In this document: piece by piece, positions 37,458 to 52,897 of the stretch
Numbering within the stretch: position 1 is the first letter of the stretch
Layout of the letters: each line of letters starts with the position of its first letter
Translations under genes and position numbers: made by a program
Origin: Candidatus Falkowbacteria bacterium
Lineage (GTDB): Bacteria; Patescibacteriota; Patescibacteriia; UBA11705; JABHMO01
Direction of reading: 5' to 3'
NCBI GenBank assembly: GCA_018674305.1
Contig: JABHAL010000001.1
Coordinates: 4,635-68,634, forward strand
DNA: 64,000 bases
The notes under the pieces: model-generated
What the model was told of the DNA's origin: nothing
The model's database searches: none
What the model saw: the letters and a program-made list of their open reading frames with translations, nothing else

Positions 37458-37901
37458 CTACTGCAACCAACGGTAACCGTTAAATTCGTCACCATCTTCT
37501 TCGTCCTCGGCGACATCACCAAAATATGACATTCGCCGACGTACATCTTGCTTGATTCTTTCTTCCGGAATCCGAGCAAGCACTGCCTCATGAGCTCGCT
37601 CCGACAGGCGCTTCTTGTCATCTTCTGACAAAATCACTTCCGTCTCGACGACCAGGGATTCCATGAATGCCAATCGCAAGGCTTCCGCGACACGTCTGTC
37701 GACATGGTCAAATCTCGACAACCGATCTTCAATCGCCTGAATCGCGAACCTGACCAAGTCCGGTCGCTTGTCCATGAGAGTGTCTCGTACATCCCTCAAT
37801 TGCTGTACAGAACCGATTTTAAACAAATGTTCATACATAGAAGTACAACCACTTCTTCGCCGACTCTCGCAATTCTCACACTTCTTTCGCATTTCGATCA
37901 T
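37458..37901 (-). CDS. hypothetical Cys-motif protein (paralog of 38027..38638)
   Basis: C-x2-C-x7-C N-terminus then RPDL..FAIQAIEDRL; SD GGAGG; ~48% GC. Confidence 0.4.
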   Translation of the reverse strand: MIEMRKKCENCESRRRSGCTSMYEHLFKIGSVQQLRDVRDTLMDKRPDLVRFAIQAIEDRLSRFDHVDRRVAEALRLAFMESLVVETEVILSEDDKKRLSERAHEAVLARIPEERIKQDVRRRMSYFGDVAEDEEDGDEFNGYRWLQ

Positions 37902-38026: not shown

Positions 38027-38638
38027 CTAATGAACAAACGGTGAACCACCTCCCGAAGAACCAGGACAAGCCCCACCATCAAACATGATCTCAGCGTCAC
38101 AACCTTCTCGTTTTAGGATTCTGAGTAGTTCTTCATTAACTTTTTGACCAAGCCTTCTGATAAAATCAAAAACGGCGGCGTTATACAGAACTTCAATATG
38201 CTCAGCTCTATCAGTCAAACACTTGGCAACTTCCATTCCAAGCTCAGGTCTGTCAAACTCACACAGCAACTCAATAAATGAATGCATATGCTCATAGTCT
38301 TTTTTCATCTCCACGTAGAGCTGTTCTGCATCTGCGCCAGACAAAAAAATCTTTTTCAGACGTGCCTTAACAGCAGAGCACGTTTTCGGGGTTTCAATGA
38401 ACGTTTTCATTTGATACCGTAAACTGTCAAAGGCTGACGCATTACTCCTATCTGCCAAAGCTCTATCTTCAAGCGCCAGAATCGCCACCTTTTGCAAATC
38501 CGTACGCATGAGTAAAATAACCAACAAGGAACTTAGCATATCGTCAGGTTCAGCCATATTTACCACAGCCTGCAGTCTTGCCGTACAGTTTGCTCTGTCA
38601 TTGCAATCTTTGCAAGATTCACTCATTTCTTCCCCCAT
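38027..38638 (-). CDS. hypothetical Cys-motif protein (paralog of 37458..37901)
   Basis: C-x2-C-x6-C then RTDL..VAILALEDRAL; C-terminal CDAE...GGACPG. Confidence 0.4.
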   Translation of the reverse strand: MGEEMSESCKDCNDRANCTARLQAVVNMAEPDDMLSSLLVILLMRTDLQKVAILALEDRALADRSNASAFDSLRYQMKTFIETPKTCSAVKARLKKIFLSGADAEQLYVEMKKDYEHMHSFIELLCEFDRPELGMEVAKCLTDRAEHIEVLYNAAVFDFIRRLGQKVNEELLRILKREGCDAEIMFDGGACPGSSGGGSPFVH

Positions 38639-38748: not shown

Positions 38749-39480
38749 TTAATATTCGCTTTCTCTAAACGCCTTGGCTTTTTCAGTCGGGCCGGAATAA
38801 CGTTCCTTGATTTCATCCACGCAAACATAGCTGAGCGTCCACATTTTGGCTGCCTGTTCAACAGTATAATCCGCAAAAGACTTGTCCTCTATCAATTCTC
38901 TCGTGTCTTGCTTGAAAGTGCCAACAGATCTCAAATACACATTGACACCATTGACCGAACTGCCACATTCCTGTGTTACTGATTCCGAAACAAAACCCAA
39001 CCGCAAATAATACTTTTTTCCGTCAGCCTTATCCCTAAACAGACAAAGCACGTCCGATAAATCAGTCAAGGCAGGTTGATACATCCATCCCATAAATTCA
39101 ACTTTCGACCATGGAACAAATGCTGACACCAAGTTCATCTTATCTGGAACTTCAGTCCTAAGAGATTTTACTTCCTCAAGCGAAAATCCCGGCAAACAAC
39201 GACGAGCAACAACAGGATCCAATTCCGAATTGTTCGCACGGTCATACGCGACCTCGAAGGTCTTGGAAGTATCAATGGCTTTCCTGTACGAAGGATTCTT
39301 TTCCTGAAGTAATTCAAGGTCCTGAACGCCTTGCTCAAAAGCAAGGACAATAGGATTCTTTTTTGTTTGTTCAACAACTACGGCTGACGGTGTATCAGCT
39401 TGTTTTTTTTCGACCAAGTCACAACCGTTAATCAAGAAAACTAAAAAGCAAGAAAATAACAAAACAATACATTTTCTCAT
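38749..39480 (-). CDS. hypothetical lipoprotein (start reassigned to MRKCIV behind SD GGAGGGAAAG; lipobox LINGC)
   Basis: strong SD 7 nt before the internal ATG; signal peptide with a cysteine lipobox. Confidence 0.45.
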   Translation of the reverse strand: MRKCIVLLFSCFLVFLINGCDLVEKKQADTPSAVVVEQTKKNPIVLAFEQGVQDLELLQEKNPSYRKAIDTSKTFEVAYDRANNSELDPVVARRCLPGFSLEEVKSLRTEVPDKMNLVSAFVPWSKVEFMGWMYQPALTDLSDVLCLFRDKADGKKYYLRLGFVSESVTQECGSSVNGVNVYLRSVGTFKQDTRELIEDKSFADYTVEQAAKMWTLSYVCVDEIKERYSGPTEKAKAFRESEY

Positions 39481-39714
39481 CTTTCCCTCCATAAGAAAAT
39501 AAATAACTGCTATTAATATTAACGAGAACGCCACGAATACATATTTTCGCCTCTTGCGGCTGCGCGGCGAATACGCCACCTCTTGATAATTCGCGCCATA
39601 AAAGCGACAAATAAACCAAGAAAAAATACTGGCACAAACAACCAAAAATAAGCACCAAACATTTTGACTCCTCACTAGTTGTTAAATTTCATGTTTCGGT
39701 TTATTTTAATACAA

Positions 39715-42285
39715 TTACTTGCTACCGTCAAGTTTAACCTTCAACTCCGCAATCTTTTGAAGTGCTTCAAGCGGTGTCATTTTATTAACATCAATTTTAT
39801 CTAAAGCTTTGGTGACTTTTTCTTCTTGTGGACTAATAGATAACGGCAAACTGCTTTGTTCAGCTTTTTTGCTAACTTTAATCTCAGTCTTTTTTTCCAG
39901 ACCATTCAAAATATCAGTTGCCCTGCTAATCATTTCATCAGGCAAACCTGCCAACTTAGCAACTTCAATACCATAACTTTCAGATGTAGCGCCTTTTACA
40001 ATTTTATGTAAGAAAACTACGTTACCCGCTTCTTCACTAACCGCCACACAATAATTTTCTGCGCGTTCTAATTTTTCAATAATATCTGTCAACTCATGGT
40101 AATGTGTAGCAAAAATTGTTTTAGCGCCAAGTTTATCGTGAATGTGTTCAATAATTGCCCAGGCAATACTAACGCCGTCGTAAGTGGAAGTACCACGTCC
40201 GAGTTCATCCAAGATTATTAATGATTTCTTAGTTGCATTATTTAAAATGTTAGCAGCTTCCTGCATTTCTGCCATAAAAGTGGAAACACCTTGAGTAATA
40301 TTATCTGAAGCGCCAACTCGAGTAAAAATTCGATCAACAATACCTAACTGAGCTGAATCAACTGGTACAAAGCTACCAATTTGTGCTAATAAACAAATCA
40401 GAGCCGACTGACGCAAATAACTGGACTTACCACTCATATTCGGACCGGTCAAAAGAAGAAACTCATTTTTTTTGTGGTCCATCTGCAAATCGTTAGGAAC
40501 ATAACGCTCAGTTTGAATTGCCTCAATTACTGAATGCCGACCAGCCTTAATATTAATTTCACCATTGCTGGTTATTTCAGGCTGATTATAATTATTTGAA
40601 TTAGCCAGTAAAGCAAAACCGGTTAACACATCCAACTTAGCAATAATCGAAGCTACACCTAACACATCAGAAAAATATTTAATAATCTTTTCAACAGTTT
40701 CCTGAAAAATCTGCAACTCCATGGTTTTGATTTTATCTTCAGCAGTTAAAATCTTTTCTTCGTATTCTTTTAGTTCAGGTGTAATGAATCGTTCAGCATT
40801 AACTAGAGTTTGCTTACGAGTATAATCTTCTGGAACTTGATTCAAATTGGAATTACTAACTTCAATATAATATCCAAACACTCGATTGAATTTTACTTTT
40901 AAAGATGAAATCTTAGTGCGTTCAACCTGCTTGGCCTGAAACTCTAATAACCAATCTTTACCACCACGTGAAATTTTTCTCAACTCATCCAAATCAGGAC
41001 TATAACCATCTTTGATCATCCCACCTTCAGTAATAAGAGCAGGTGGTTCCTCAATAATTATTTTATCAATAAATTCAACTACTTCTTTTAGCGGATCCAA
41101 GTTTTTATGATATTTTTGTAACAATTCTGCTTTTTTATCTTGCAATAATAGTTTTAATTCAGGAACGATCTGTAAACTTTTTTTCAAAGAAACTAAATCA
41201 CGAGCACTGCCTCGCCCACAACCCAACCGACCAATTAATCTTTCTAAATCCGCGATTTGTTTTAATTTTTCTTGAATACTTTTTATTACAGTTGTCTGTT
41301 CTTTGATTTCGGCCACAGCCTGCAGTCGACGGTTTATTTTATCTTCGTCCAAAAGTGGCAATATCAGCCAGCGCCGTAAACGTCGCCCACCCATACTGGT
41401 TACAGTTTTATCAATAACTGAAAGTAAGCTTCCCTCATATCCAGCGGTGTTGGCAGTTTGAAATAATTCCAAGTTCCGGACGGTCGCTTCGTCCAAAACC
41501 ATATAATTTTGAAAACTAAATCTTTGTATACGGGTAATATGACTTAAATCACTTTTTTGAGTATCTTTTAAATAACCCAGCAACAATCCTGCCGCTTCAA
41601 TACCAATTGGTAATTCTTCAACACCGAAACTTTGTAAATTTTTTACTTTAAACTGTTTAATCAAAAGTGCATATGCCTTTTGAAAAACTGACAATTGAAA
41701 AACATTAACATTGGACAAAGAACTTATAAATTCTTTATACCGAGTATCATTGAATAACTCTTGGTTAATTATTATTTCCGAAAAATCAAACCGGTAAATT
41801 TCATTCTTCAATAAACTTAAATCCAATACTTCTGCCACTCGAAATTCACCTGTAGTCAAATCTGCAATCGCCAAACCCCAAGTATTTTTCTGAAAAGTCA
41901 AAGCGGCAATAAAATTATTACTTTTATTATTTAAAGTTGAGTTAACTAAAGTCGTACCAGGTGTAACGACCTGCACAACTTCCCTCTTTACAATACCCGG
42001 TAAGCTTGCGTCACCAACTTGATCACAAATAGCCACTCGCTGACCAGCTCTTAATAATTTAGCTAAATAATTTTCTAAAGCATGATGAGGAATTCCACAC
42101 ATGGGCATTTCATTTGAAGAACCCTTGTGCCTAGCAGTCAAAACAATATCCAAAATAGCTGAAGCTTTTTTTGCATCCTCTCCAAACAATTCATAAAAAT
42201 CACCTAACCTAAAAAACAACAACTCATTCGGATGCTTTTCTTTTATTTCATTGTATTGCCTTAACATTGGAGTTAATTCGGCCAT
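39715..42285 (-). CDS. mutS: DNA mismatch repair protein MutS
   Basis: GPNMSGKSSYLRQ Walker A, DELGRGTSTYDG, N-terminal mismatch-binding domain. Confidence 0.95.
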   Translation of the reverse strand: MAELTPMLRQYNEIKEKHPNELLFFRLGDFYELFGEDAKKASAILDIVLTARHKGSSNEMPMCGIPHHALENYLAKLLRAGQRVAICDQVGDASLPGIVKREVVQVVTPGTTLVNSTLNNKSNNFIAALTFQKNTWGLAIADLTTGEFRVAEVLDLSLLKNEIYRFDFSEIIINQELFNDTRYKEFISSLSNVNVFQLSVFQKAYALLIKQFKVKNLQSFGVEELPIGIEAAGLLLGYLKDTQKSDLSHITRIQRFSFQNYMVLDEATVRNLELFQTANTAGYEGSLLSVIDKTVTSMGGRRLRRWLILPLLDEDKINRRLQAVAEIKEQTTVIKSIQEKLKQIADLERLIGRLGCGRGSARDLVSLKKSLQIVPELKLLLQDKKAELLQKYHKNLDPLKEVVEFIDKIIIEEPPALITEGGMIKDGYSPDLDELRKISRGGKDWLLEFQAKQVERTKISSLKVKFNRVFGYYIEVSNSNLNQVPEDYTRKQTLVNAERFITPELKEYEEKILTAEDKIKTMELQIFQETVEKIIKYFSDVLGVASIIAKLDVLTGFALLANSNNYNQPEITSNGEINIKAGRHSVIEAIQTERYVPNDLQMDHKKNEFLLLTGPNMSGKSSYLRQSALICLLAQIGSFVPVDSAQLGIVDRIFTRVGASDNITQGVSTFMAEMQEAANILNNATKKSLIILDELGRGTSTYDGVSIAWAIIEHIHDKLGAKTIFATHYHELTDIIEKLERAENYCVAVSEEAGNVVFLHKIVKGATSESYGIEVAKLAGLPDEMISRATDILNGLEKKTEIKVSKKAEQSSLPLSISPQEEKVTKALDKIDVNKMTPLEALQKIAELKVKLDGSK

Positions 42286-42958: not shown

Positions 42959-45900
42959 TTATTTGATCTGCACACTATCAGCCTTGGAATAATTAATTAT
43001 TGATGGACTATTACTAGATTGAATAGTTACCGGCTCAGCTCGGTATTCACCAAGAGCAGCTACTCGAGCATAGTACTTAAAGTAGTTTAGACCTTTACAC
43101 GGTTGCCAATTCTTATTCATACCAAACTTTATCTTCTGATCATTAATTTCGTAAGGATAACGTAGACCACACCAACTCCTAATACCAATTGAGTAAGGTC
43201 TAGTTACGCCTTTCAAACCACTTGGTAAAATATCGGTTATTTGATAATAACCATCGACCGAATCAACAGAAATCTGAGGATATAAACGAACCTCAATTAT
43301 ATCTCCAGCTGAAAAATGATTAACCTGCTGACCATCCACATAATATTGACGGTCAACTGACACATACTGACTAAATGCCTGATCAGTTACTTTTTCTTGA
43401 TAAATACTGGTTACGCCAATATCACCTTGTACGTCCTCAATTTTTAGCCTAGCCAACTGTTCAGGTAATAAGTCTAGCTTGAAGTTTTGACCATTTTCTA
43501 ATTCTTTTTTGTATTTTTTCCCATCAACGTTAACAGTGAAACTAACTGGCCCAACATTCAAGGTTGGCAGACGCTTTGTCAAATAATTAACTTCTTCTAA
43601 ATTGATCAAGACATCTTTAGTCCGGTGATCTGCCAGATAAGACCAAAGCCCTTTATGATATGGGTCATTCAGACCAGCTGCCAACACAGCAGCTAAACTT
43701 GTTGCCTGCAAAACATCATCTTGATCTTTGCCAGTTTTAATTCGGACATAAGAATCTAATTCTTCAGCATTTTCTTTCATTACCTCTAGATAAAGTTTAC
43801 GACCAAGTTCACGATCACCGATCTCAAATGCTGCCAATGCAATATATAATTTTTCTTTAACAGTAACATCTTCAAGTGTCGCAATATTTTGAATTGGCAA
43901 AAGCACAGGCTCTCCCAATCCAGCTAATCCGTAAAGGGAAATAATTACTTCCTCCTGACTAGACTCTTCTGAATTTAGTTTTGTGTAAAAATACTTTGAC
44001 AAAGAAACTTTATCAAATTCAGCCCCTGCAATTGAAGCAACTTTGGCACTCAATTCAAAGTCACTTGAACTATAAGGCAATAAAGTCAAACCACCTTTAC
44101 TCTCCTGATAAGTAGCTGAATTAAAGTTATCTACTTTGTATTCCTTACTGAAATACTGCTTAAATAACTTTTGAGCGGCAACTTTGGAAACTCTCTGGTC
44201 CAACCGATCTCCGTACTGCCAACTTAATCGAAGTAGTCGATGATAAAGCTGTCCAATACTCTCGTCCATAAAAACTAGAGTTGTTCTGTCCGTTGCCGAA
44301 CCAGAAATTTCCACGCCTGACTCATACTTATAATAATCCTGCACTTCTTTGGTCAACAAACTTTCAGCCACAGCAAATTTATTTATCAAGGTATCTTCAA
44401 GTTCACCCTTTTTGGCAGTTGAACTAATTTCATACTGTCCAACGCCAACTTCCCCTAGCGCTACGCTTAAAGCATCAAAAGCTTCCGTTTGTTTAACTAT
44501 TTTATTCAAGTCTAATGCTTCAGAACTAATTTCATAATCAATCACATCACCTGAAGTTAAAGTTTCACCATATGTTCGTAACTGCATAACAGGAGAATCC
44601 CCTTCCAAAAACTTATCTGGTAAAGTTGAGTTTATAAACAAAGGAAGACTAACCGGCAAGGCTGTTACCTCTCTACCAGCGTAAATATCCTTATTAATTG
44701 CCTGCGTAGTAATTCGCCATGAGGTTATATTATCAGGTAATTCAAATCTAACAGTTGCGCGACCAAATAAATCAGTCTTGGCCATTTTGAATAAAGCAGT
44801 ATCCTGAAAGTCTTCTCGCGCTCCACCTTTGTCATTGTGAACAAAGAAACCTTCTGCGAAATATGTGTGATATTTTTCAATATGTAAATTATAAACATCA
44901 ACCATTTGACCGAATCTCTCAATGCTCTCAATTTTAACTCTTTGACCAAATTCATCTAATAAATAATCACCTACTTTAGACTGACCAATCATCTGCCAAC
45001 CATTATTAACAAATACTCTATGCTCAGGAGTAACCCGCAACTTCCCATTAATTAGGTAATAGCCATAAACTGTATGCTCAAAAGTGTTTAACACTTTAGC
45101 TCTAACTAATTTCTTCGATAGCGGATCACTAAAAGTTAAGATCTCATCACCAATCTGAATTTCTTCAATATTCTTGTATGAGCCGTCAGCCATCTTGATC
45201 TGGGTACCAGCCACAAAACAACCGCCCATACCACTCGCATCAGGCGCCAAAGACAATGCTTCATGGGAAGCATAAGTCGTTTTTAGTCCAGCACTTTCCA
45301 ACTGATATACACTGGCCAAAATATCTGCCCAATCTTCGCTCAGCTGAAAAAAGGCTTCATCAACCAAACTTAAATTCAAAGTTGCTGCAACCGGATTTCC
45401 TTTTTGATTAGTAACTTTAACTTCTAATTCCACATCCTCACCTGGTGCATACTCCTCCTTATTTGAAGTAACTTCAACATTTAATTCTTTTTCTGAATAA
45501 TCATATCTGATTGATGTTCCACTGCTAGAACTATACCAATTGTTACTTCCGCTCTGATGATATTTCTCACCATCAAACCAAACTCCACTAACATAAATAT
45601 TTGGAATATAGCTATCCTTGAAGTTAAATTCGTAAACTGGTTCAGTTGACAATGAATAGTCAACTAGACCACGTCGCATCTTGTAGTACAAATAATCTTT
45701 CTTTTCCTGAGAAGATAAAATATCATTATTTTTTGTGAATTCCAAAATCACACTCTCGTCTACCTTAAACTTAACTTTATCACCCTTAATTGCCAACTTA
45801 TAATATTCGTAATTATTGGAACTATATGGATTGCCATAATATGAAGAGCCATACATTTGAGTGGATAAATAATTATTCCCTTGCTCATCAATGGCAATCA

Positions 45901-48505
45901 AGCGAATTTGGTAATAACTCTTTTCTTCAGTTTCAAATTCATAAGTAAACTCACCTGCGGCATCAGTTAAACCTGACATCTCATGAATAACTTTTTCTTC
46001 TTTTTCGTACTTGTATTTTTTATTAACGACCTTATTAATATAATCATACTCTTCACCAATTTCATTCTTGTGCCAAATTATTTGGATAATTTTACCTTTA
46101 ATAGCTGTATTTGGCGCCACTTCTTCCTCATCAACAACACTCCAAAGACTCCCTTTGGCCCTTTTCTCTAAATCGTATTTTTTCACTGTGGCCTTTATTT
46201 TTGCTGTTAATGAATTCTTTTCTTTTGGCGCAACTTCCATCTTGGTATAAACACGAGAGTTATAAGTATAGACATAAGCTGTTTGATTAATCTGTGCCAC
46301 TTCCGGTTGCGTTGAATTCAAATTTAAGTATACTGTTTGCATGTTGGAACAATATGTTTTTTCTAAAGTACACTTAGTCGCGACTGATGGCACCTCGATA
46401 CGCGCCTCACCAGCTAAGTCAACCTCGACTTCTCCTTTCACAGACTTATTACTGGAACTATAATCTAAAACTAAATCTGACACGGGAGTACCTTCAAAAA
46501 ATTCCGCATTAACATCAAAAACTGCAGTTTCTCCGGACCAAATCACTTTATTCTCTGGCTCAACCTTGATTTGATATGCTGGTTTATCGTAAGTCTGAAT
46601 ATTAATGTACTTAGTAGACAAAATCTCATCACCAAGTCTAACGTCCACATAATAATAACCCGGGACTAACTTTTCAAGCTTCAACTCACCAGAATAAACA
46701 AAATCAGGAGACACTTCAAGTTCTTGTTCTGCCAAACTTATTTCTTCATTATAATAATTATAATAACGAGCATAACTATTTTGCCGCAAAGCAACTGTAA
46801 CTTTTTCATCAATCCCCTTTGAATCCTTGGGTTTTACAAATCCCCAAAATTTAATAGTATCGTCAGGTTGAAATAAATTTCGATCAGTGTAAAAATATTT
46901 CCAATACTCTTTTTGCTCTTGTTTAGAAAAACTAACAGGAACAATAGTTACATCACCATCTTTTCGAACCCTCAAGTAGTCAGTCTCATATCGATCTTCC
47001 TCGCTAAAAACAAAAGCTGTGTCGGTATTAAATTTAGTAATTCCTTGACCGTCAGTACTTTTAGTAATTCCACTGGAAATTATTTTAACCTCAGCATTTT
47101 GAACTGACCCTTTATCCACAATACTATTAACCCAAACTAGGCTTTCACTGGTAGACACCATAGAAAATACTGCTAATTCACTAACTGAGAAAAAAGTCTG
47201 TCTTTTCACGTCCTGAACAGTTGATTCAATGACATAAAACCCCGGTTCATATACTTCTGGAAAAACTATAAACTTATTGTAATTAACTTCTCGAACTTCC
47301 AATTCATAGTCAGTTATATGACTAAGGGTATTAGTGTCAACCAAAGAAGACTCGCGATTATAGCTTGCCCAAGCAGGATAATCATATCTACTTTTCAGCG
47401 CCTCTAAATAAGCTGTATCATTGGCCAAGGAATAAACATTTAACTTAATTTTACTATCAAGTAAATTTCGTTCGTAAACTTTGAAGGCTGGCTCTCTAGT
47501 TGGAGAAAATTCTAGATAATCACCGATAATCATGAAGTAAGGTTTATTATTTGAACCTCGCTTATAATTTACCAATGGACTGGTCTCAAATTGCAGGGTG
47601 TAATCTTTTACCATTTTTTCATCTGACTCCGACAAAGGTAACTCCTTGTCTACAATTATTCTGTAAATAGTACCAGGCATTAAATTCTTGGGTACAAAAA
47701 CCCAAGTTCTTTTATGCTTTTCGAAACTTCCATCAACCTTTGGTTCAATTGTAAAATGTTTAGCAAACTCTTCCACATTGTCATGACTGAAAGTAAATTC
47801 AATTCCTGTATCAAGTGGTACCCCAGAACTTTTATCACGAGGCAAAGAGCCGATAATTTTGAATTGGTCTTTAGTTTGAAACGCCCAAGAATAATCTTGT
47901 TCAAATGTTAAACCGCTTTCTGCCATAATAGAGGCCGAAATTACAACACTATAAACAACTCGTGGTTGCAATGGTTCACTTGGAATAATCTTAAACTCAT
48001 GATCATTTACTTTTTTAAAACTAAACTCTAATTCAGGTTTGATCTGAATATTCTCTTCCAATAATTCTGAATCTACGACTTCTTTACTTTTAATAACAAA
48101 AGCAGTGTCCGACTCAACGCCAATACTATCACTAACTGTCGCCTCAACTGTAAAATTATCCTGCGCGTATGCTGGACTAATTATAAGTCGAGAAAATTCA
48201 CTGAAAGGTGAATCTTGGCCAGGCCAGTAATGACTAGCTGTTACAAGTAAAGCAAAAATCACCAGAACAGCTAGAACTGGAGATAAGCGCCTGACAGTAA
48301 AAAGTGAAGAAAATCCTTTTACAAAATTTAGCATATGTTTTTTTTGCTGCCGTTTTTCTAGGATCTTCGATTTTAATGCATAACGAAAATCATCAGAAGC
48401 AGGCTCATTTTTAAATTGTGCTTTTTTTAGCATACTCTCTGCTTCCTGTAACGGATGATTTTCACTTTTATTACGTTTTTTATTGTTATTGTTGTAATTT
48501 TGCAT
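42959..48505 (-). CDS. giant (1848 aa) surface protein: anti-sigma-like cytoplasmic N-terminus, TM, MG/Ig-like repeats, embedded Hint domain, alpha-2-macroglobulin-like TED region (no CGEQ)
   Basis: start 3 nt after the ECF sigma stop; TM LSPVLAVLVIFALLVTA at ~aa 75-95; LSLVDEAFFQL and ITSWRITTQAIN resemble A2M-family motifs; C...HN Hint domain. Confidence 0.6.
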   Translation of the reverse strand: MQNYNNNNKKRNKSENHPLQEAESMLKKAQFKNEPASDDFRYALKSKILEKRQQKKHMLNFVKGFSSLFTVRRLSPVLAVLVIFALLVTASHYWPGQDSPFSEFSRLIISPAYAQDNFTVEATVSDSIGVESDTAFVIKSKEVVDSELLEENIQIKPELEFSFKKVNDHEFKIIPSEPLQPRVVYSVVISASIMAESGLTFEQDYSWAFQTKDQFKIIGSLPRDKSSGVPLDTGIEFTFSHDNVEEFAKHFTIEPKVDGSFEKHKRTWVFVPKNLMPGTIYRIIVDKELPLSESDEKMVKDYTLQFETSPLVNYKRGSNNKPYFMIIGDYLEFSPTREPAFKVYERNLLDSKIKLNVYSLANDTAYLEALKSRYDYPAWASYNRESSLVDTNTLSHITDYELEVREVNYNKFIVFPEVYEPGFYVIESTVQDVKRQTFFSVSELAVFSMVSTSESLVWVNSIVDKGSVQNAEVKIISSGITKSTDGQGITKFNTDTAFVFSEEDRYETDYLRVRKDGDVTIVPVSFSKQEQKEYWKYFYTDRNLFQPDDTIKFWGFVKPKDSKGIDEKVTVALRQNSYARYYNYYNEEISLAEQELEVSPDFVYSGELKLEKLVPGYYYVDVRLGDEILSTKYINIQTYDKPAYQIKVEPENKVIWSGETAVFDVNAEFFEGTPVSDLVLDYSSSNKSVKGEVEVDLAGEARIEVPSVATKCTLEKTYCSNMQTVYLNLNSTQPEVAQINQTAYVYTYNSRVYTKMEVAPKEKNSLTAKIKATVKKYDLEKRAKGSLWSVVDEEEVAPNTAIKGKIIQIIWHKNEIGEEYDYINKVVNKKYKYEKEEKVIHEMSGLTDAAGEFTYEFETEEKSYYQIRLIAIDEQGNNYLSTQMYGSSYYGNPYSSNNYEYYKLAIKGDKVKFKVDESVILEFTKNNDILSSQEKKDYLYYKMRRGLVDYSLSTEPVYEFNFKDSYIPNIYVSGVWFDGEKYHQSGSNNWYSSSSGTSIRYDYSEKELNVEVTSNKEEYAPGEDVELEVKVTNQKGNPVAATLNLSLVDEAFFQLSEDWADILASVYQLESAGLKTTYASHEALSLAPDASGMGGCFVAGTQIKMADGSYKNIEEIQIGDEILTFSDPLSKKLVRAKVLNTFEHTVYGYYLINGKLRVTPEHRVFVNNGWQMIGQSKVGDYLLDEFGQRVKIESIERFGQMVDVYNLHIEKYHTYFAEGFFVHNDKGGAREDFQDTALFKMAKTDLFGRATVRFELPDNITSWRITTQAINKDIYAGREVTALPVSLPLFINSTLPDKFLEGDSPVMQLRTYGETLTSGDVIDYEISSEALDLNKIVKQTEAFDALSVALGEVGVGQYEISSTAKKGELEDTLINKFAVAESLLTKEVQDYYKYESGVEISGSATDRTTLVFMDESIGQLYHRLLRLSWQYGDRLDQRVSKVAAQKLFKQYFSKEYKVDNFNSATYQESKGGLTLLPYSSSDFELSAKVASIAGAEFDKVSLSKYFYTKLNSEESSQEEVIISLYGLAGLGEPVLLPIQNIATLEDVTVKEKLYIALAAFEIGDRELGRKLYLEVMKENAEELDSYVRIKTGKDQDDVLQATSLAAVLAAGLNDPYHKGLWSYLADHRTKDVLINLEEVNYLTKRLPTLNVGPVSFTVNVDGKKYKKELENGQNFKLDLLPEQLARLKIEDVQGDIGVTSIYQEKVTDQAFSQYVSVDRQYYVDGQQVNHFSAGDIIEVRLYPQISVDSVDGYYQITDILPSGLKGVTRPYSIGIRSWCGLRYPYEINDQKIKFGMNKNWQPCKGLNYFKYYARVAALGEYRAEPVTIQSSNSPSIINYSKADSVQIK
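44834..45220 (-). other. Hint / bacterial intein-like (BIL) domain, 129 aa, embedded in the giant protein
   Basis: GMGG|CFVAGTQIKMADG...HIEKYHTYFAEGFFVHN|DKGG: N-terminal Cys, block-A-like start, C-terminal His-Asn; the +1 residue is Asp, so a BIL-type cleavage module rather than a splicing intein; coordinates +/-1 nt. Confidence 0.6.
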
Positions 48506-48508
48506 AAA

Positions 48509-49042
48509 TTATTTATGTAAACTTTTGAATTTATTTAAGGCTCGATAAAGTAAAACTCCCACATTATTTGCTGAAATATGCATCGTTTCGGCAATCTCCT
48601 GATTGGACAATTCAGCGAAATACTTCAAATTTACCACCTGTTGATAACGGCCGGACATTTTCTGAATAATCTGCATAACCTTTTTCTTATCTTCTAAACT
48701 CATTAAATATTCTTCTGTAGTTTGTTTAATTTCCGCTGGTTCAGTTATGTCTTCAATATCCACCTTTGTATTTTTTAATTCTTTGCGATAATAATCAATT
48801 AAATTATTAGTGGCAATTTTATAAACCCAGGACTTAAATGATCCTTTACGTGGATTAAAATTCTTTAAACCACAAAAAACCTTGGTAAAGGTTTCTGAAA
48901 CAATATCCTCAGCAATTTCACGTTTACCACAACGCTTAAATACATAGCCGTAAATTTTATCAAAATAAAAATCATACAAGACACCAAAAGCCTGGTGATC
49001 ATGTACTGCATCTTTGACCAGTTGTTTTTCATTTTCCAACAT
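48509..49042 (-). CDS. ECF-type RNA polymerase sigma factor (sigma-70 regions 2 and 4)
   Basis: YDFYFDKIYGYVFKRCGKREIAEDIVSETFTKVF (region 2) and LSNQEIAETMHISANNVGVLLYRAL (region 4 HTH). Confidence 0.8.
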   Translation of the reverse strand: MLENEKQLVKDAVHDHQAFGVLYDFYFDKIYGYVFKRCGKREIAEDIVSETFTKVFCGLKNFNPRKGSFKSWVYKIATNNLIDYYRKELKNTKVDIEDITEPAEIKQTTEEYLMSLEDKKKVMQIIQKMSGRYQQVVNLKYFAELSNQEIAETMHISANNVGVLLYRALNKFKSLHK

Positions 49043-49100: not shown

Positions 49101-50561
49101 TTAACGTTGGAATGGCCGGCAAGATTTACCTTTCTTAGCCCACATACCAACTCGGAACCTTTGAACAATCCGGTGAGTTCTGGATCCGTAAACCGGTGGC
49201 GGCTTGGTCAGGTCAACCTTGTCCGGTACTTGGTCCATGGAATAGTTAGAAGCAAGGAACTCTTGATGCGCCTGGCGGGCTACCTCCTCCCTTTCTCTCT
49301 CAATCTGCCATTTGGATTTTGGCGGCATTTTGACCACCTTGGCTTTTTTCTTTTTCTCAGGCTTTTTCCCGTCAACTTCTTTTCTGGTTGCTGTCTTCCT
49401 GGCAACATTGTTTTTTCTTTGTTCACGAGATTTTCGTCTTTGTACAGCCATAGCTCGAAAAAACTTCTTAACCAAGTTAGTATACTTGCTCCACTTTTGT
49501 AGAGCACGAGAACGAAAACGAACAGACCATTGCATTTTGCAGTTGATCAAGAAATAGGTAAAACCAAGAGCACCTGCTCCTGAAGCAAAATTTCCTAACC
49601 AGTATAAACCCTCCCCATGAGTGGGCACCTGCACAAAAGACCAAACAGCCAGAGTCATAATCCCGACCCAGACTAAAAAACCAATTGGAGAAAACGGTAG
49701 ATATTGACGTTTTTCATAAGGATATCCGCTCTTACTCCATAGCAGTCGAATTTCTGGATGCACTCTCCAATAAGCTTTCAACCATCCATCTCGACCACGA
49801 AGAACATTCCACACTTCCCGTCGAATAGAGATCGTTCGCCAACCGGCCATAAAAAATGCTGCACAGCCAAAGATAATTAACAAACTGCGAAACAACTTGG
49901 CAATCACTTCTGTGAACAGTAAATACAGCAAATAGCAAGGAACAGCTAAGACCTTAGGTATTGAAAGAATCTTGCGCCGTCTATACTGACACTCATCACG
50001 AGGCGGCTCTGAATGCAACCAATTTACATAGTGCCAAACCAACTTGCTAAACTTAGTTTCTGGCTCTTTAGCAAATAAAGCTTCTGGCACCTCCACTTCA
50101 ACAAGCTTAGAAGCAACTGACCTCCGAGGAAGATCATATAATCGATAAAACTCCAGACCCTGCCAAGAAATGCACTGATAAAAGCGGCCATTACGATCAC
50201 GCTCTAAAAGCCCCTTTATATACTCTTGGTCATCGTCACGAAAAGAAAAAACAAGCACACCAAGACGATGCTTGCCAGCACGCAGAAATTGCAGAAACTG
50301 CAGACCATCAGCAATTCGAAACAGCTGACGACGACCATAATCCCGATCATTCCTCCAATAATCACGATCCACCTTATCGGATTTTTCCAAGCACTGTTCA
50401 ATCAATAAAATATGAGTAGGGTTCTTGGCTAACAATTCTTCACCCAGTCCAATCTGAACTGGAATTGTAGCAGAATCCATCTCCTCTTTACCACCATTGA
50501 ATACTACTTTAAACTCTGGACTCAATGACTCATTTTCCGCAGCGGCTTGTAAATCTGACAT
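49101..50561 (-). CDS. hypothetical membrane protein with basic C-terminal tail
   Basis: 486 aa, 4-5 TM helices, ~45% GC versus ~32% background. Confidence 0.4.
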   Translation of the reverse strand: MSDLQAAAENESLSPEFKVVFNGGKEEMDSATIPVQIGLGEELLAKNPTHILLIEQCLEKSDKVDRDYWRNDRDYGRRQLFRIADGLQFLQFLRAGKHRLGVLVFSFRDDDQEYIKGLLERDRNGRFYQCISWQGLEFYRLYDLPRRSVASKLVEVEVPEALFAKEPETKFSKLVWHYVNWLHSEPPRDECQYRRRKILSIPKVLAVPCYLLYLLFTEVIAKLFRSLLIIFGCAAFFMAGWRTISIRREVWNVLRGRDGWLKAYWRVHPEIRLLWSKSGYPYEKRQYLPFSPIGFLVWVGIMTLAVWSFVQVPTHGEGLYWLGNFASGAGALGFTYFLINCKMQWSVRFRSRALQKWSKYTNLVKKFFRAMAVQRRKSREQRKNNVARKTATRKEVDGKKPEKKKKAKVVKMPPKSKWQIEREREEVARQAHQEFLASNYSMDQVPDKVDLTKPPPVYGSRTHRIVQRFRVGMWAKKGKSCRPFQR

Positions 50562-51067: not shown

Positions 51068-52897
51068 TTATTCTAAAATCGCTTTTATTCTACGAACACC
51101 AGCTGAACTGGATTCTTCTTTTCTAATTTTAAAATGGCCCAAGTCACCAGTTTGTTCAACATGCGGACCGCCACACATTTCAGCACTCACATCACCGATG
51201 GAGAAAACTTTTACCACATCGCCATATTTATCTTCAAACAAACCAACCACACCACGTTCTTTTGCGTCCATATAGGGGATTTCTTCACACACAATCTGCA
51301 AGTCTTGTTTAATCCAATCATTAACTAAATCTTCAACTTGTTTTTTTTGTTCATCTGTCATCTTCTCTTCATGGGTAAAGTCAAAACGTAAACGATCAGG
51401 AGTAATGTTACTTCCCTTTTGTTTAATATGTTCGCCTAAAACTTGTTGTAATGCTGCTTGCAGTAAATGAGTGGCAGTATGCAACTTCGTGGTTGATTCA
51501 CCCTGATCAGCTAGACCACCTTTGAACTTTTGTTCAGCACCCGCGCGGGATAACTCTTGATGTTTTACAAATTCTTTTTCAAATTCTACTTCATCAACTG
51601 TAAGCCCTTGCTCGCCGGCTAATTCTTTAGTCATTTCCAAAGGAAATCCATAAGTAGAAAATAAATCAAATGCTTCTTCCCCAGTAATTTTGCTTTCTTG
51701 CTTTTTTTCTTTTTTACTTTCTTGCAATTTCCCAAGTTGCTTTAATCCATTCTCAAGTGTATGGGCAAACTTTTCTTCTTCCAAAACCAATTGATTGATA
51801 ATGAAATCTTTATTATTTTTCAATTCAGGATAAACATCTGCCATTTGTTTAATCACAACTTCAGCAATTTTAGATGTAAACACTTCTTCAATTCCTAGCT
51901 GTTTACCATAACGAACTGCGCGACGAATTAAACGCCGAAGAATGTAGCCTTGATCAACATTTGAGGGTTGAACTCCCTTTTCATCACCTAAAATGAAAGC
52001 TGCAGCTCGAACATGATCAGCAACAATGCGAAAAGCTGATTTATTGTCCTCATACTTTTTATCACAAAGCTCACTTATTTTTTCAAATAAAACGGCAAAC
52101 TCTTCAATATCAAATACTTCTTTTTCGCCATTCAAAACCGCTACCGTGCGTTCCAATCCCATGCCAGTGTCCACATTTTTCTTTTCTAGTGGAGTTAACT
52201 TACCAGCCGCATCTTTATCGAATTCCATAAACACGTCATTCCAAACTTCAAAAAACTTACCGTTATCTACCAGTTCATCAAAAGTTAATTCAGTGAACCC
52301 TTCTTCTGGTCGGGTGTCATAAAACATTTCTGAACATGGTCCGCAAGGTCCAATATTTAAGCCCCACCAATTATCTTCTGCTGGCAAAGCAAAAATGCGC
52401 ACATTTTCACTTGTCCATTTACCTTCTTTATCTAATTCGGCGGTAATATTAACTTTAGCAAACTGCTCTTGCCAAAGTTTAACGGATTCTTCGTCCAAAG
52501 GGGCTGAATCATCACCTTGAAAAACCGTAATATAAATTCGTTTAGGGTCTAAACCTAACCAATCTTTGGAAGTTAAAAATTCCCAACTCCATTCAATAGC
52601 TTCTTTTTTAAAATAATCACCTAAACTCCAATTGCCCAACATTTCAAAAAATGTTAAATGCCGATTATCTCCAACATCTTCAATATCGCCTGTACGAATA
52701 CATTTTTGTGAATCAACTAAACGAGTTCCACTAGCATGTTTTTCGCCCATTAAAAATGGTACTAATGGGTGCATTCCCGCCATAGTAAATAAAACTGTAG
52801 CATCATTTTCTGGAATTAATGAAGCTGATGGAATAATTTCATGTCCTTTACTTTTGAAAAAATCTAAGTATTTTTGTCTAAGTTCCTTCGTTGTCAT
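51068..52897 (-). CDS. alaS: alanine--tRNA ligase, catalytic + editing domains, no C-Ala domain
   Basis: class II motifs, the AlaRS tRNA-recognition region, and the editing-site H...H / CGG.H motifs (TATHLLQAAL, MCGGPHV). Confidence 0.9.
   Translation of the reverse strand: MTTKELRQKYLDFFKSKGHEIIPSASLIPENDATVLFTMAGMHPLVPFLMGEKHASGTRLVDSQKCIRTGDIEDVGDNRHLTFFEMLGNWSLGDYFKKEAIEWSWEFLTSKDWLGLDPKRIYITVFQGDDSAPLDEESVKLWQEQFAKVNITAELDKEGKWTSENVRIFALPAEDNWWGLNIGPCGPCSEMFYDTRPEEGFTELTFDELVDNGKFFEVWNDVFMEFDKDAAGKLTPLEKKNVDTGMGLERTVAVLNGEKEVFDIEEFAVLFEKISELCDKKYEDNKSAFRIVADHVRAAAFILGDEKGVQPSNVDQGYILRRLIRRAVRYGKQLGIEEVFTSKIAEVVIKQMADVYPELKNNKDFIINQLVLEEEKFAHTLENGLKQLGKLQESKKEKKQESKITGEEAFDLFSTYGFPLEMTKELAGEQGLTVDEVEFEKEFVKHQELSRAGAEQKFKGGLADQGESTTKLHTATHLLQAALQQVLGEHIKQKGSNITPDRLRFDFTHEEKMTDEQKKQVEDLVNDWIKQDLQIVCEEIPYMDAKERGVVGLFEDKYGDVVKVFSIGDVSAEMCGGPHVEQTGDLGHFKIRKEESSSAGVRRIKAILE

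What the first reader, a model, noticed from the sequence alone, without database searches (positions are those of the whole stretch)
44834..45220. Hint / bacterial intein-like autoprocessing domain embedded mid-protein in the giant surface protein
A compact 129-aa segment begins GMGG|CFVAGTQIKMADG and ends FFVHN|DKGG. An N-terminal Cys in a block-A-like context, a C-terminal His-Asn, and a length typical of BIL/mini-Hint domains are all present. The residue after Asn is Asp, which rules out splicing but still allows N- or C-terminal autocleavage. In a macroglobulin-like, anti-sigma-fused protein this could replace the bait-region or regulated-intramembrane-proteolysis trigger by self-cleavage.
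Basis: partly seen in the sequence, partly recalled or inferred. Interest (0 to 1): 0.75.

Follow-up and report, generated by a model that had tools for sequence, protein, structure and literature searches.

The report
Self-processing Hint domain in macroglobulin bait loop
A giant membrane-anchored, protease-trap-like (alpha-2-macroglobulin-type) surface protein of a Candidatus Falkowbacteria bacterium carries a small, fully intact intein-like "Hint" domain inserted in its bait loop, the loop that normally has to be cut to spring the trap; this placement has not been described in any paper I could find, and it suggests the loop processes itself.

Summary
Window 44834-45220(-) encodes aa 1096-1224 (Cys...His-Asn, then Asp) of an 1848-aa ORF.

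- **Identity of the domain.** It is a genuine Hint domain of the bacterial intein-like (BIL / PT-HINT) type. Pfam PT-HINT scores 50.6 bits against a cutoff of 27.7. The AF2 model has pLDDT 90. The best structural matches are Tetrahymena BIL2 (TM 0.81) and the C. thermocellum type-A BIL 2LWY.
- **The host protein.** It is a thioester-less bacterial alpha-2-macroglobulin-like protein with one N-terminal membrane helix. An ECF sigma gene lies 4 nt upstream.
- **Position.** The Hint sits codon-precisely in the disordered Gly-rich bait loop, six residues before the motif that aligns with human A2M just after its bait region.
- **Conservation.** In 98 family members Cys1, block-B Thr/His, His-Asn and Lys+2 are invariant, -1 is Gly, and +1 is almost never a nucleophile. 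The Hint is the most conserved part of the protein.
- **Polymorphism.** Alleles 81% identical in DNA lack the Hint exactly, and 6-10 gain/loss events are needed.
- **Best reading.** A self-excising type-A-like BIL whose thioester is resolved by a C-flank amine, possibly Lys1226. Cleavage-only and trans-conjugation are rivals.

I found no prior description in the papers I could search. I rate it a new variant of a known kind.

The parts
42959..48505 (-). Host ORF, 1848 aa: membrane-anchored, thioester-less bacterial alpha-2-macroglobulin-like protein. 100% identical to NCBI 'hypothetical protein HN858_05755 [Candidatus Falkowbacteria bacterium]'.
   Evidence: Big_5, bMG3, MG2, A2M_BRD, PT-HINT, A2M; P0001; Foldseek: ECAM 5A42 E 4e-45, Salmonella A2M 4U48; no CxEQ in any of 121 sequences.
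44834..45220 (-). Hint / BIL domain, aa 1096-1224 (Cys1096 ... His1223-Asn1224).
   Evidence: profiles above curated cutoffs. (AF2 pLDDT 90.2). (6Y75 TM 0.81, 2LWY TM 0.77/0.83). (profile against PDB: BILs about 1e-17, inteins about 1e-9).
45218..45220 (-). Cys1096, the N-terminal nucleophile (block A). One of only 5 Cys in the protein.
   Evidence: 98/98 Cys; Cys positions.
45020..45031 (-). Block B Thr1159-Pro-Glu-His1162 (TxxH).
   Evidence: Thr 98/98, His 98/98.
44867..44893 (-). Block F 'VYNLHIEKY-H' (aa 1205-1213). Asn1206 is invariant where classical inteins usually have Asp. The same VYN...HTY signature occurs in the type-A BIL 2LWY.
44834..44839 (-). His1223-Asn1224, the block G residues for Asn cyclisation.
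   Evidence: His 98/98, Asn 98/98.
45221..45277 (-). N-side bait linker aa 1077-1095 (TYASHEALSLAPDASGMGG), predicted disordered, ending in Gly-Gly at -2/-1.
   Evidence: pLDDT below 50 for model 429-446. (-2 Gly 95/98, -1 Gly 96/98).
44822..44833 (-). C-flank Asp1225-Lys1226-Gly-Gly. The +1 residue is non-nucleophilic and the +2 Lys is invariant.
   Evidence: +1 D61 E16 Q14 I2 N1 G1 A1 T1; +2 Lys 98/98. (no C-side Lys in 16/16 nested Hint-less loops). (disordered).
44591..44797 (-). A2M (MG) domain aa 1237-1305. It follows the R-x-x-F-x-D-x-A-x-F motif (R1230...), which aligns with human A2M 'RKYFPETWIW' just after the bait region.
   Evidence: (profile aligns to 6TAV residues 729-812).
45341..45793 (-). 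A2M bait-region domain (PF07703) aa 905-1055.
   Evidence: 40.3 bits, cutoff 22.7.
43562..44257 (-). Helical TED-like domain aa 1417-1648. The would-be thioester site reads QYGDRLDQ (aa 1430-1437, window 44195-44218) and has no Cys.
   Evidence: helices at model 769-1000. (motif position between the first two helices). (no CxEQ). The positional equivalence is inferred.
48230..48286 (-). Single N-terminal hydrophobic helix (about aa 74-92), the membrane anchor. About 70 aa would be cytoplasmic.
   Evidence: hydropathy maximum. The topology is inferred.
48509..49042 (-). ECF-type sigma-70 factor gene, 4 nt upstream of the A2M-like gene and probably co-transcribed.
   Evidence: Sigma70_r2, r4_2, Sigma70_ECF. 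The same arrangement occurs in L001, L003 and L004.

Best explanation
The segment is a type-A-like bacterial intein-like (BIL / PT-HINT) autoprocessing domain. It sits codon-precisely in the flexible Gly-rich bait loop of a membrane-anchored, thioester-less alpha-2-macroglobulin-like surface protein of CPR bacteria.

Proposed course of events (inferred from BIL and intein chemistry, not shown here):
1. After export and folding, Cys1096 attacks the Gly1095 carbonyl in an N-S acyl shift, assisted by Thr1159 and His1162. This gives a thioester.
2. Asn1224 cyclises, assisted by His1223, and cuts the Hint off the C-flank.
3. The thioester is then resolved by an amine of the C-flank. This is either the freed alpha-amine of Asp1225 (the type-A BIL route) or the epsilon-amine of the invariant Lys1226 (the route shown for Tetrahymena BIL2).
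4. The 129-aa Hint leaves, and the two halves of the macroglobulin are re-joined. The resulting bait loop has the same length as in Hint-less alleles.
5. Hydrolysis of the thioester would give a two-chain by-product.

The domain is inherited vertically with the host gene, has no endonuclease, and has been lost (or gained) precisely several times.
For: Shown:
- Hint fold and BIL affinity.
- All catalytic positions, the Gly-Gly at -2/-1 and Lys+2 are invariant or nearly so in 98 members, with no decayed copy.
- The +1 residue is a nucleophile in only 1 of 98.
- The Hint is the most conserved 129-aa window of the protein: 54% identity against 36-40% for the flanks.
- Hint divergence tracks host divergence (r = 0.78, slope 0.94), and the Hint DNA has normal GC.
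- The insert lies between the only two disordered stretches of that region, 6 residues before the motif that aligns with the first post-bait residues of human A2M.
- The Hint-bearing P0038 and Hint-less P0056 genes are 81% identical in DNA on both sides. The exactly excised loop AE-GGGAIKG-R equals AE-GGGGGGG-R in length.
- The C-side Lys is present in 98/98 Hint-bearing loops and 0/16 nested Hint-less loops.

From the literature:
- Type A BILs have a C-terminal His-Asn, lack a +1 nucleophile, cleave, and can splice by aminolysis (PMC4031507, PMC7664689).
- BIL2, the top structural match, forms a Lys-epsilon isopeptide with a Gly-Gly-ending N-extein (PMC8616854).
Against: No biochemical data exist for this protein. 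For characterised type-A BILs, cleavage products dominate over spliced ones (PMC4031507, PMC7664689), so re-ligation may be minor here. High conservation of the catalytic residues is expected equally for a beneficial processing module and for a harmless element that must remove itself. I could not inspect model coordinates to see whether Lys1226 can reach the Gly1095-Cys1096 junction. The AF2 model of aa 649-1848 superposes better on protease-activated ECAM (TM 0.53) than on native ECAM (TM 0.26). If that difference is meaningful, it would favour a cut loop. The close relatives with the Lys directly at +1 are tandem Hint arrays of unknown product, so the role of the Lys is not established.
Confidence: 0.5

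Rival explanations
1. Cleavage-only, a self-cutting bait. The Hint cuts at one or both of its ends without re-joining the flanks. The macroglobulin then matures as a two-chain molecule held together non-covalently, comparable to the furin-processed beta/alpha chains of C3/C4/C5, which are cut in the same loop. Alternatively it is constitutively sprung or primed without needing a foreign protease.
For: Characterised BILs give predominantly N- and C-cleavage products (PMC7664689, PMC4031507). The domain sits exactly in the loop whose cleavage is the trigger in all A2M-family proteins. The AF2 model of aa 649-1848 resembles trypsin-activated ECAM (TM 0.53) more than native ECAM (0.26), and active CD109 (0.42) more than native CD109 (0.28).
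Against: Alleles about 85% identical in protein lack the Hint and keep an intact, colinear loop. This is hard to reconcile with a large functional difference between cut and uncut states. The invariant Gly-Gly at -2/-1 and the Hint-coupled invariant Lys+2 have no obvious role in simple hydrolysis. AF2 conformations of a truncated multi-domain protein are weak evidence.
Confidence: 0.27
2. Trans-conjugation, a covalent warhead. The Gly1095 thioester made by the Hint is passed to a foreign nucleophile, as Hedgehog passes its thioester to cholesterol and Tetrahymena BIL2 passes ubiquitin-like domains to lysines of other proteins. The nucleophile could be a lysine of an attacking protease or of a host-cell surface protein. 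This would give a thioester-less macroglobulin a covalent capture chemistry that replaces the missing CxEQ site.
For: No CxEQ occurs in any of 121 family members, and the TED site reads GDRLDQ. The N-extein ends in Gly-Gly as in ubiquitin-like BIL substrates. BIL2, the top structural match, conjugates its N-extein to several substrates (PMC8616854). The thioester would form inside the bait loop, where an attacking protease binds.
Against: Hint-less relatives also lack CxEQ, so the Hint does not correlate with loss of the canonical thioester. A Hint thioester forms spontaneously after folding and would not wait for a target unless it is regulated. An invariant Lys two residues away should win intramolecularly. 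The membrane-anchored N-fragment would be the part conjugated, and that makes little obvious sense for trapping.
Confidence: 0.1
3. Catalytically silent Hint fold used as a structural or binding module in the bait loop, or a classical intein.
For: Some Hint-fold domains are non-catalytic (own knowledge). The block-F Asp typical of class 1 inteins is Asn here.
Against: All catalytic residues are invariant in 98/98 sequences, with no decay. The VYN block F is shared with the active type-A BIL 2LWY. A classical intein is excluded by the absence of a +1 Cys/Ser/Thr in 97/98. The insertion is in a disordered, variable loop and not in a conserved active site.
Confidence: 0.05

Closest known systems
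Type A bacterial intein-like (BIL) domains, e.g. Clostridium thermocellum BIL4 (PDB 2LWY); Pfam PT-HINT PF07591
   Same: Mini-Hint of about 130 aa. N-terminal Cys, block B TxxH, block F 'VYN..V...HTY', C-terminal His-Asn, no +1 nucleophile, no endonuclease, and found in secreted or surface proteins. 30% identity, TM 0.77/0.83. Profile E 8e-18.
   Different: The host and position are new: the bait loop of an alpha-2-macroglobulin-like protein, not a pre-toxin or adhesin context. This family has fixed flanks (GG | ... | D/E/Q-K-G-G) with an invariant Lys+2. It is inherited vertically across a CPR-wide orthologous family.
Tetrahymena thermophila BUBL BIL2 (PDB 6Y75/6TMM)
   Same: Best structural and sequence match (TM 0.81, 31-32% identity, E 7e-18). 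Its N-extein ends in Gly-Gly, and a lysine amine resolves the thioester to an isopeptide (PMC8616854).
   Different: It is eukaryotic and flanked by ubiquitin-like domains, where it acts as a ubiquitin-dispensing platform. Here the flanks are two halves of one macroglobulin, and the candidate Lys is 2 residues after Asn.
Bacterial alpha-2-macroglobulins (E. coli ECAM/YfhM 5A42, 4ZIQ; Salmonella A2M 4U48) and the thioester-less class (YfaS/MagD; own knowledge)
   Same: MG-domain chain, bait-region domain, A2M domain, helical TED-like domain and C-terminal MG domain. Foldseek E down to 4e-45. Some sources name homologs 'YfaS'.
   Different: No CxEQ thioester. Anchored by an N-terminal transmembrane helix, not a lipobox. 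The gene partners are an ECF sigma and Memo, not PBP1c or the yfa/mag operon. There is a Hint domain in the bait loop.
Complement C3/C4/C5 (own knowledge of the family; PDB hits)
   Same: The loop equivalent to the A2M bait carries an inserted domain (the anaphylatoxin domain). It is constitutively cut during maturation to give a two-chain protein that stays assembled.
   Different: In complement the cut is made by furin and convertases. Here the inserted domain would process the loop itself. This is an analogy only, with no homology between the inserts.
Classical mini-inteins (e.g. Mtu RecA, Ssp DnaB)
   Same: Same fold and catalytic blocks A, B, F and G. Codon-precise presence/absence between close alleles.
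   Different: No +1 Cys/Ser/Thr. Block F Asp is replaced by Asn. The insertion is in a disordered, non-conserved loop of a surface protein. The sequence is much closer to BILs (1e-17 against 1e-9).

Membership tests
Hint (Hedgehog/intein) superfamily | Hint fold recognised by curated profiles and by structure | tested here: met
   PT-HINT 50.6 bits (cutoff 27.7), plus Intein_splicing, Vint, Hint_2 and TIGR01443 all above their cutoffs. AF2 pLDDT 90.2. Foldseek hits to BILs, inteins and Hedgehog 1AT0, all at probability 1.00.
Type A bacterial intein-like (BIL) domain | N-terminal Cys/Ser nucleophile and block B TxxH | tested here: met
   Cys1096, Thr1159 and His1162, each 98/98 in the family.
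Type A bacterial intein-like (BIL) domain | C-terminal His-Asn (intein-like block G), which distinguishes type A from type B | tested here: met
   His1223-Asn1224, 98/98. Definition taken from PMC4031507.
Type A bacterial intein-like (BIL) domain | No nucleophilic residue at +1 | tested here: met
   +1 = Asp here. Across the family: D61 E16 Q14 I2 N1 G1 A1 T1 of 98.
Type A bacterial intein-like (BIL) domain | Closer in sequence and structure to BILs than to inteins or Hog domains | tested here: met
   Profile against PDB: 2LWY 8e-18 and 6Y75 7e-18, against Mtu RecA intein 6e-10. TM 0.77-0.81 against about 0.70. Shared 'VYN...HTY' block F.
Type A bacterial intein-like (BIL) domain | Autocatalytic N- and/or C-terminal cleavage, with some splicing | not testable with these tools
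   This needs expression with native flanks and SDS-PAGE/MS. Only the conservation of the catalytic residues is available.
Classical (class 1) intein | Cys/Ser/Thr at +1 of the C-extein | tested here: not met
   Asp1225. A nucleophile occurs in only 1 of 98.
Classical (class 1) intein | Insertion in a conserved functional site of an essential (often replication or repair) protein; frequently carries a homing endonuclease | tested here: not met
   The insertion is in a disordered Gly-rich loop of a surface protein. At 129 aa there is no room for an endonuclease.
Hedgehog/Hog autoprocessing domain | Hint at the C-terminal part of the protein followed by a sterol/adduct-recognition region; no C-terminal His-Asn cleavage | tested here: not met
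   The domain is internal, has His-Asn, and is followed by 624 further residues of macroglobulin.
Alpha-2-macroglobulin / thioester-containing protein superfamily (host protein) | MG-domain array with bait-region domain, A2M domain, TED-like helical domain and C-terminal MG domain | tested here: met
   Pfam A2M_BRD and A2M are above their cutoffs; the bMG3 (32.4 against 34.9) and MG2 (24.0 against 32.8) matches fall below theirs. AF2 plus Foldseek match ECAM and Salmonella A2M at E about 1e-44.
Alpha-2-macroglobulin / thioester-containing protein superfamily (host protein) | CxEQ internal thioester in the TED | tested here: not met
   No C.EQ in the query or in 120 homologs. The site reads QYGDRLDQ. 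The protein therefore belongs with the thioester-less members.
Membrane-bound anti-sigma factor | Recognisable cytoplasmic anti-sigma domain | tested here: inconclusive
   No Pfam match in aa 1-110 even at E = 5. Short, divergent anti-sigma segments often escape profiles.
Membrane-bound anti-sigma factor | Gene directly downstream of, or overlapping, an ECF sigma gene; single-pass topology | tested here: met
   Sigma gene 4 nt upstream in the window. Overlapping sigma genes in L001, L003 and L004, but absent in the P0048, P0120, P0071 and P0038 contexts. Single hydrophobic helix at aa 74-92.

The most novel reading that the evidence does not exclude
The Hint converts a thioester-less macroglobulin into a covalent one by a different chemistry. 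It generates a Gly1095 thioester inside the bait loop, and a lysine amine captures it. Intramolecular capture by Lys1226 would give an isopeptide-spliced bait loop. Capture in trans, by a lysine of an attacking protease or of the host cell surface, would give a covalent conjugate. The trans route would be an ATP-independent, BUBL-like conjugation system in bacteria, and a convergent replacement of the CxEQ warhead of the A2M/complement family.
Probability: 0.12. Interest if true: 0.85.

Novelty: new variant of a known kind. Interest (0 to 1): 0.62.

Why it matters
All alpha-2-macroglobulin and complement-type proteins are triggered by proteolysis of one loop. Here a family-wide, perfectly conserved autoprocessing domain is built into that loop, in proteins that have lost the canonical thioester.

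- If the Hint only splices itself out, it is a clean natural example of a BIL behaving as a vertically inherited, endonuclease-free, intein-like element in an extracytoplasmic protein. Natural Hint-bearing and Hint-less allele pairs are available for comparison.
- If it cuts the loop, or passes the thioester to a lysine, it is a new way to arm or regulate a macroglobulin trap. It would also be a possible bacterial counterpart of the BIL-mediated isopeptide conjugation seen in Tetrahymena.

The family also offers compact (129 aa) BIL domains with fixed Gly-Gly / x-Lys-Gly-Gly junctions, which could be useful for protein ligation tools. It concerns surface proteins of CPR bacteria, whose cell-surface biology is almost unknown.

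Tried and rejected
1. Plus-strand reading of the coordinates: only stops.
2. Classical intein: rejected. There is no +1 nucleophile, the insertion is in a disordered loop, and the domain is closer to BILs.
3. Recent horizontal insertion: rejected. Hint GC is 0.344 against 0.358 +/- 0.022 for the gene, and Hint distances track host distances.
4. The Hint compensating for loss of the CxEQ thioester: not supported as a correlation, because Hint-less relatives also lack CxEQ.
5. The Hint tied to the ECF-sigma pairing: rejected. Sigma and Memo neighbours occur with and without the Hint.
6. Anti-sigma domain in the N-terminus: none found.
7. The search for homologous proteins with the Hint profile returned mostly short fragments under 270 aa and was uninformative about architecture. 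The exhaustive representative search was used instead.
8. Single-sequence phmmer of aa 649-1848 against PDB found only the Hint hits. The alignment profile was needed to reach A2M structures.
9. Literature searches for macroglobulin combined with Hint domain, bacterial intein-like, PT-HINT, or anti-sigma + ECF returned no paper. Macroglobulin + intein + Patescibacteria returned nothing relevant. The library omits most subscription journals, so absence is not proof.
10. I could not access model coordinates, so the Lys1226-to-junction distance was not measured.
Full report
**1. The observation.**
The coordinates are right, but the feature is on the minus strand. The plus-strand frame is full of stop codons. 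The reverse strand of 44834-45220 translates to CFVAGTQIKMADG...YFAEGFFVHN, 129 aa. This is aa 1096-1224 of a single 1848-aa ORF, 42959..48505(-). It is preceded by ...DASGMGG and followed by DKGGAREDF.

The segment alone passes the curated thresholds of five independent Hint/intein models:

| Model | Score (bits) | Cutoff (bits) |
|---|---|---|
| PT-HINT | 50.6 | 27.7 |
| Intein_splicing | 38.6 | 35.8 |
| Vint | 30.9 | 27 |
| Hint_2 | 29.8 | 28.4 |
| TIGR01443 intein_Cterm | 28 | 15.6 |

This is not a chance resemblance.

**2. What the domain is.**
I predicted the structure of aa 1086-1234 with a 40-sequence alignment. The model is confident (pLDDT 90.2, pTM 0.84) and all-beta.

The best PDB matches are bacterial intein-like (BIL) domains:
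- Tetrahymena BUBL BIL2 (6Y75/6TMM): TM 0.81, 31-32% identity.
- Clostridium thermocellum BIL (2LWY): TM 0.77/0.83, 30% identity.
- Mini-inteins follow at TM about 0.7, then Hedgehog 1AT0.

A sequence profile gives the same ranking: BILs at about 1e-17 and the Mtu RecA mini-intein at about 1e-9. The block-F sequence VYNLHIEKYHTY matches VYNFKVDDFHTY of the type-A BIL 2LWY. The Asn in place of the classical intein Asp is therefore a BIL trait and not a defect.

By the published definition, type A BILs have a C-terminal His-Asn, no +1 nucleophile, mostly cleave and can splice (PMC4031507, PMC7664689). This domain meets every sequence criterion for type A.

**3. The host protein and the exact position.**
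- **Organism.** The ORF is 100% identical to a hypothetical protein of a Candidatus Falkowbacteria bacterium.
- **Domains.** Pfam finds Big_5, A2M_BRD (aa 905-1055) and A2M (aa 1237-1305) above their cutoffs, and bMG3 and MG2 below theirs, with the Hint in between.
- **Fold.** An AF2 model of aa 649-1848 (pLDDT 87.7, pTM 0.73) matches E. coli ECAM and Salmonella alpha-2-macroglobulin best, at E about 1e-44. It contains a helical TED-like domain.
- **No thioester.** No CxEQ motif exists in this protein or in any of 120 homologs. The positionally equivalent site reads QYGDRLDQ, between the first two TED helices. That equivalence is inferred.
- **Membrane anchor.** One hydrophobic helix at about aa 74-92 is the only membrane segment.
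- **Flanking disorder.** In the model the Hint is well folded. It is bracketed by the only disordered stretches of the region: aa 1077-1094, and aa 1225-1227.
- **Relation to the bait region.** At profile level it aligns with 6TAV residues 729-812, which start right after the human bait region (about 690-728, own knowledge).

The Hint therefore sits at the C-terminal end of the bait loop. This is the same loop that carries the anaphylatoxin domain and the maturation cut in C3/C4/C5 (own knowledge).

**4. Comparative evidence.**
- **Presence and absence.** Among the 120 best homologs, 57 carry the Hint at the same site. Their source names are Falkowbacteria, Uhrbacteria, Magasanikbacteria, Parcubacteria and one 'Bipolaricaulota'. 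The other 63 lack it, and the names given to them include Clostridia and Dehalococcoidia.
- **A clean insertion.** Hint-less loops read GGAE(Q/K)GGE-GGG(E/D)-R.DF.D.A.F. Hint-bearing loops read GAEG-GG|C...VHN|(D/E/Q)KGG.-R..F.D.A.F.
- **Census of 98 members**, after adding the exhaustive representative search (991 proteins at E <= 1e-30):
  - Cys1, block-B Thr and His, block-F Asn, the penultimate His, the terminal Asn and Lys+2 are each 98/98.
  - Position -1 is Gly in 96/98.
  - Position +1 is D61, E16, Q14, I2, N1, G1, A1, T1.
  - No copy shows catalytic decay.
- **Conservation.** The Hint is the most conserved 129-aa window of the whole protein: 54% mean identity to the query, against 36% for the N part and 40% for the C part.
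- **Vertical inheritance.** Hint distances track host distances (r = 0.78, slope 0.94), and its GC content is typical of the gene. There is no sign of recent transfer.

**5. Presence/absence polymorphism.**
On the non-Hint columns, all Hint-bearing proteins fall in one clade, which also contains 16 Hint-less members. Fitch parsimony needs 6-10 events (median 8) in 60 bootstrap NJ trees, against about 39 for shuffled states.

The closest pair is P0038 (Hint-bearing) and P0056 (Hint-less). Their genes are 81% identical in DNA on both sides of the site. They differ by a 423-nt block against 36 nt. P0038's loop after exact excision of Cys...Asn would be AE-GGGAIKG-R, the same length as P0056's AE-GGGGGGG-R.

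A second pair, P0058 and P0080, differs by one residue in loop length.

The C-side Lys is present in 98/98 Hint-bearing loops and in 0/16 nested Hint-less loops. The Lys is therefore coupled to the Hint and not to the macroglobulin.

**6. Neighbourhood.**
An ECF sigma-70 gene ends 4 nt upstream of the A2M-like gene. The same overlapping arrangement, plus a downstream Memo-family gene, occurs in:
- Hint-bearing loci L001 and L003;
- Hint-less locus L004.

Other loci of both kinds lack the sigma gene. The Hint is therefore an add-on to a pre-existing module. No anti-sigma domain is detectable in aa 1-110, so 'anti-sigma-fused' remains an inference from adjacency and topology.

**7. Mechanism.**
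*Shown:* an intact type-A-like BIL active site; its position in a flexible bait loop; Gly-Gly before Cys1 and x-Lys-Gly-Gly after Asn; and colinearity of the excised loop with Hint-less alleles.

*Inferred from established Hint chemistry:*
1. An N-S acyl shift at Gly1095-Cys1096.
2. Cyclisation of Asn1224.
3. Resolution of the thioester.

I favour self-excision with re-joining of the flanks (confidence about 0.5). The joining amine would be either the freed alpha-amine of Asp1225, as proposed for type A BILs (PMC4031507), or the epsilon-amine of Lys1226, by analogy with Tetrahymena BIL2. BIL2 is the top structural match. It has a Gly-Gly-ending N-extein and forms a Lys isopeptide (PMC8616854).

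My reasons for favouring re-joining:
- The invariant Lys is coupled to the Hint.
- The Gly-Gly is invariant.
- Near-identical Hint-less alleles have an intact loop of the same length.

Rivals:
- **Cleavage only (about 0.27).** This would give a two-chain or pre-sprung macroglobulin. It is supported by the dominance of cleavage in characterised BILs. It is weakly supported by the AF2 model resembling activated ECAM (TM 0.53) more than native ECAM (TM 0.26).
- **Trans-conjugation to a foreign lysine (about 0.1).** This is chemically attractive. However, the Hint does not correlate with loss of CxEQ, and a Lys two residues away should win.
- **Inert fold or classical intein (about 0.05).** This is contradicted by the perfect catalytic conservation and by the +1 residues.

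**8. Novelty.**
BIL/PT-HINT domains and bacterial macroglobulins are both known. Automated annotation already tags some of these proteins, for example 'polymorphic toxin-type HINT domain-containing protein'.

I found no paper combining macroglobulin with Hint domain, bacterial intein-like or PT-HINT, and nothing relevant for macroglobulin + intein + Patescibacteria. The searchable library is incomplete, so this is not proof of absence.

What is new:
- the architecture, a BIL in the bait loop of a thioester-less A2M;
- its conservation across a CPR-wide family;
- the fixed GG | x-K-G-G junctions;
- the natural Hint-bearing and Hint-less allele pairs.

I rate it a new variant of a known kind, with interest about 0.6.

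Noticed in passing
window 48509-49042(-) and 42959-48505(-); loci L001 5460-12488, L003 2442-9505, L004 2439-8990, L002 6001-11729, L005 3001-8791, L006 3001-10196: There is a recurrent gene cassette: ECF sigma (overlapping the start of the A2M gene) - thioester-less A2M-like protein - Memo-family protein (PF01875). Memo is directly downstream in 6 of 8 contexts inspected, including Hint-less Firmicute-like loci. The sigma gene is present in 4 of 8. In this window Memo is not adjacent; a 131-aa ORF with weak zinc-finger-like hits follows instead. I know of no description of an A2M-Memo pairing.
   Followed up: partly
proteins P0181-P0199 and others (e.g. P0183 aa 31-718, P0195 aa 29-446): The closest non-A2M relatives of this Hint are proteins with 2-14 tandem Hint copies joined head-to-tail by only 'KGGG' or 'KG' (...VHN|KGGG|CF...). 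In 230 such domains +1 is Lys in 151 and -1 is Gly in 121. It is unclear what a string of self-processing Hints separated by K-G-G-G produces (free or cyclised KGGG peptides, or a polyprotein).
   Followed up: partly
Hint-less homologs, loop equivalent to window 44822-45277(-) (e.g. P0086, P0087, P0092, P0056, P0080): In Hint-less relatives the bait loop is an almost pure poly-glycine run (e.g. AEGGGGGGGR, QGGGGGGGGGGR). This is an unusual bait sequence. It might select for glycyl-glycine endopeptidases, or simply act as a flexible hinge.
   Followed up: no
AF2 model of aa 649-1848 (window 42962-46561, minus strand): The predicted conformation superposes better on protease-activated forms (ECAM 4ZIQ TM 0.53; active CD109 9FX3 0.42) than on native forms (ECAM 5A42 0.26; native CD109 8S3O 0.28). 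This could be an artefact of modelling a truncated protein.
   Followed up: no
window 49101-50561(-), 38749-39675(-), 38027-38638(-), 37458-37901(-): Several sizeable ORFs next to the locus (486, 308, 203 and 147 aa) have no Pfam match at E <= 0.001. They sit among ordinary housekeeping genes (AlaRS 51068-52897, MutS 39715-42285, MutL 35559-37391).
   Followed up: partly
window 48434-48505(-): The ORF as listed starts 24 codons upstream of the NCBI-annotated start (1848 against 1824 aa). The extra N-terminus is Asn/Lys-rich (MQNYNNNNKKRNK...), so the true start is probably Met25.
   Followed up: no
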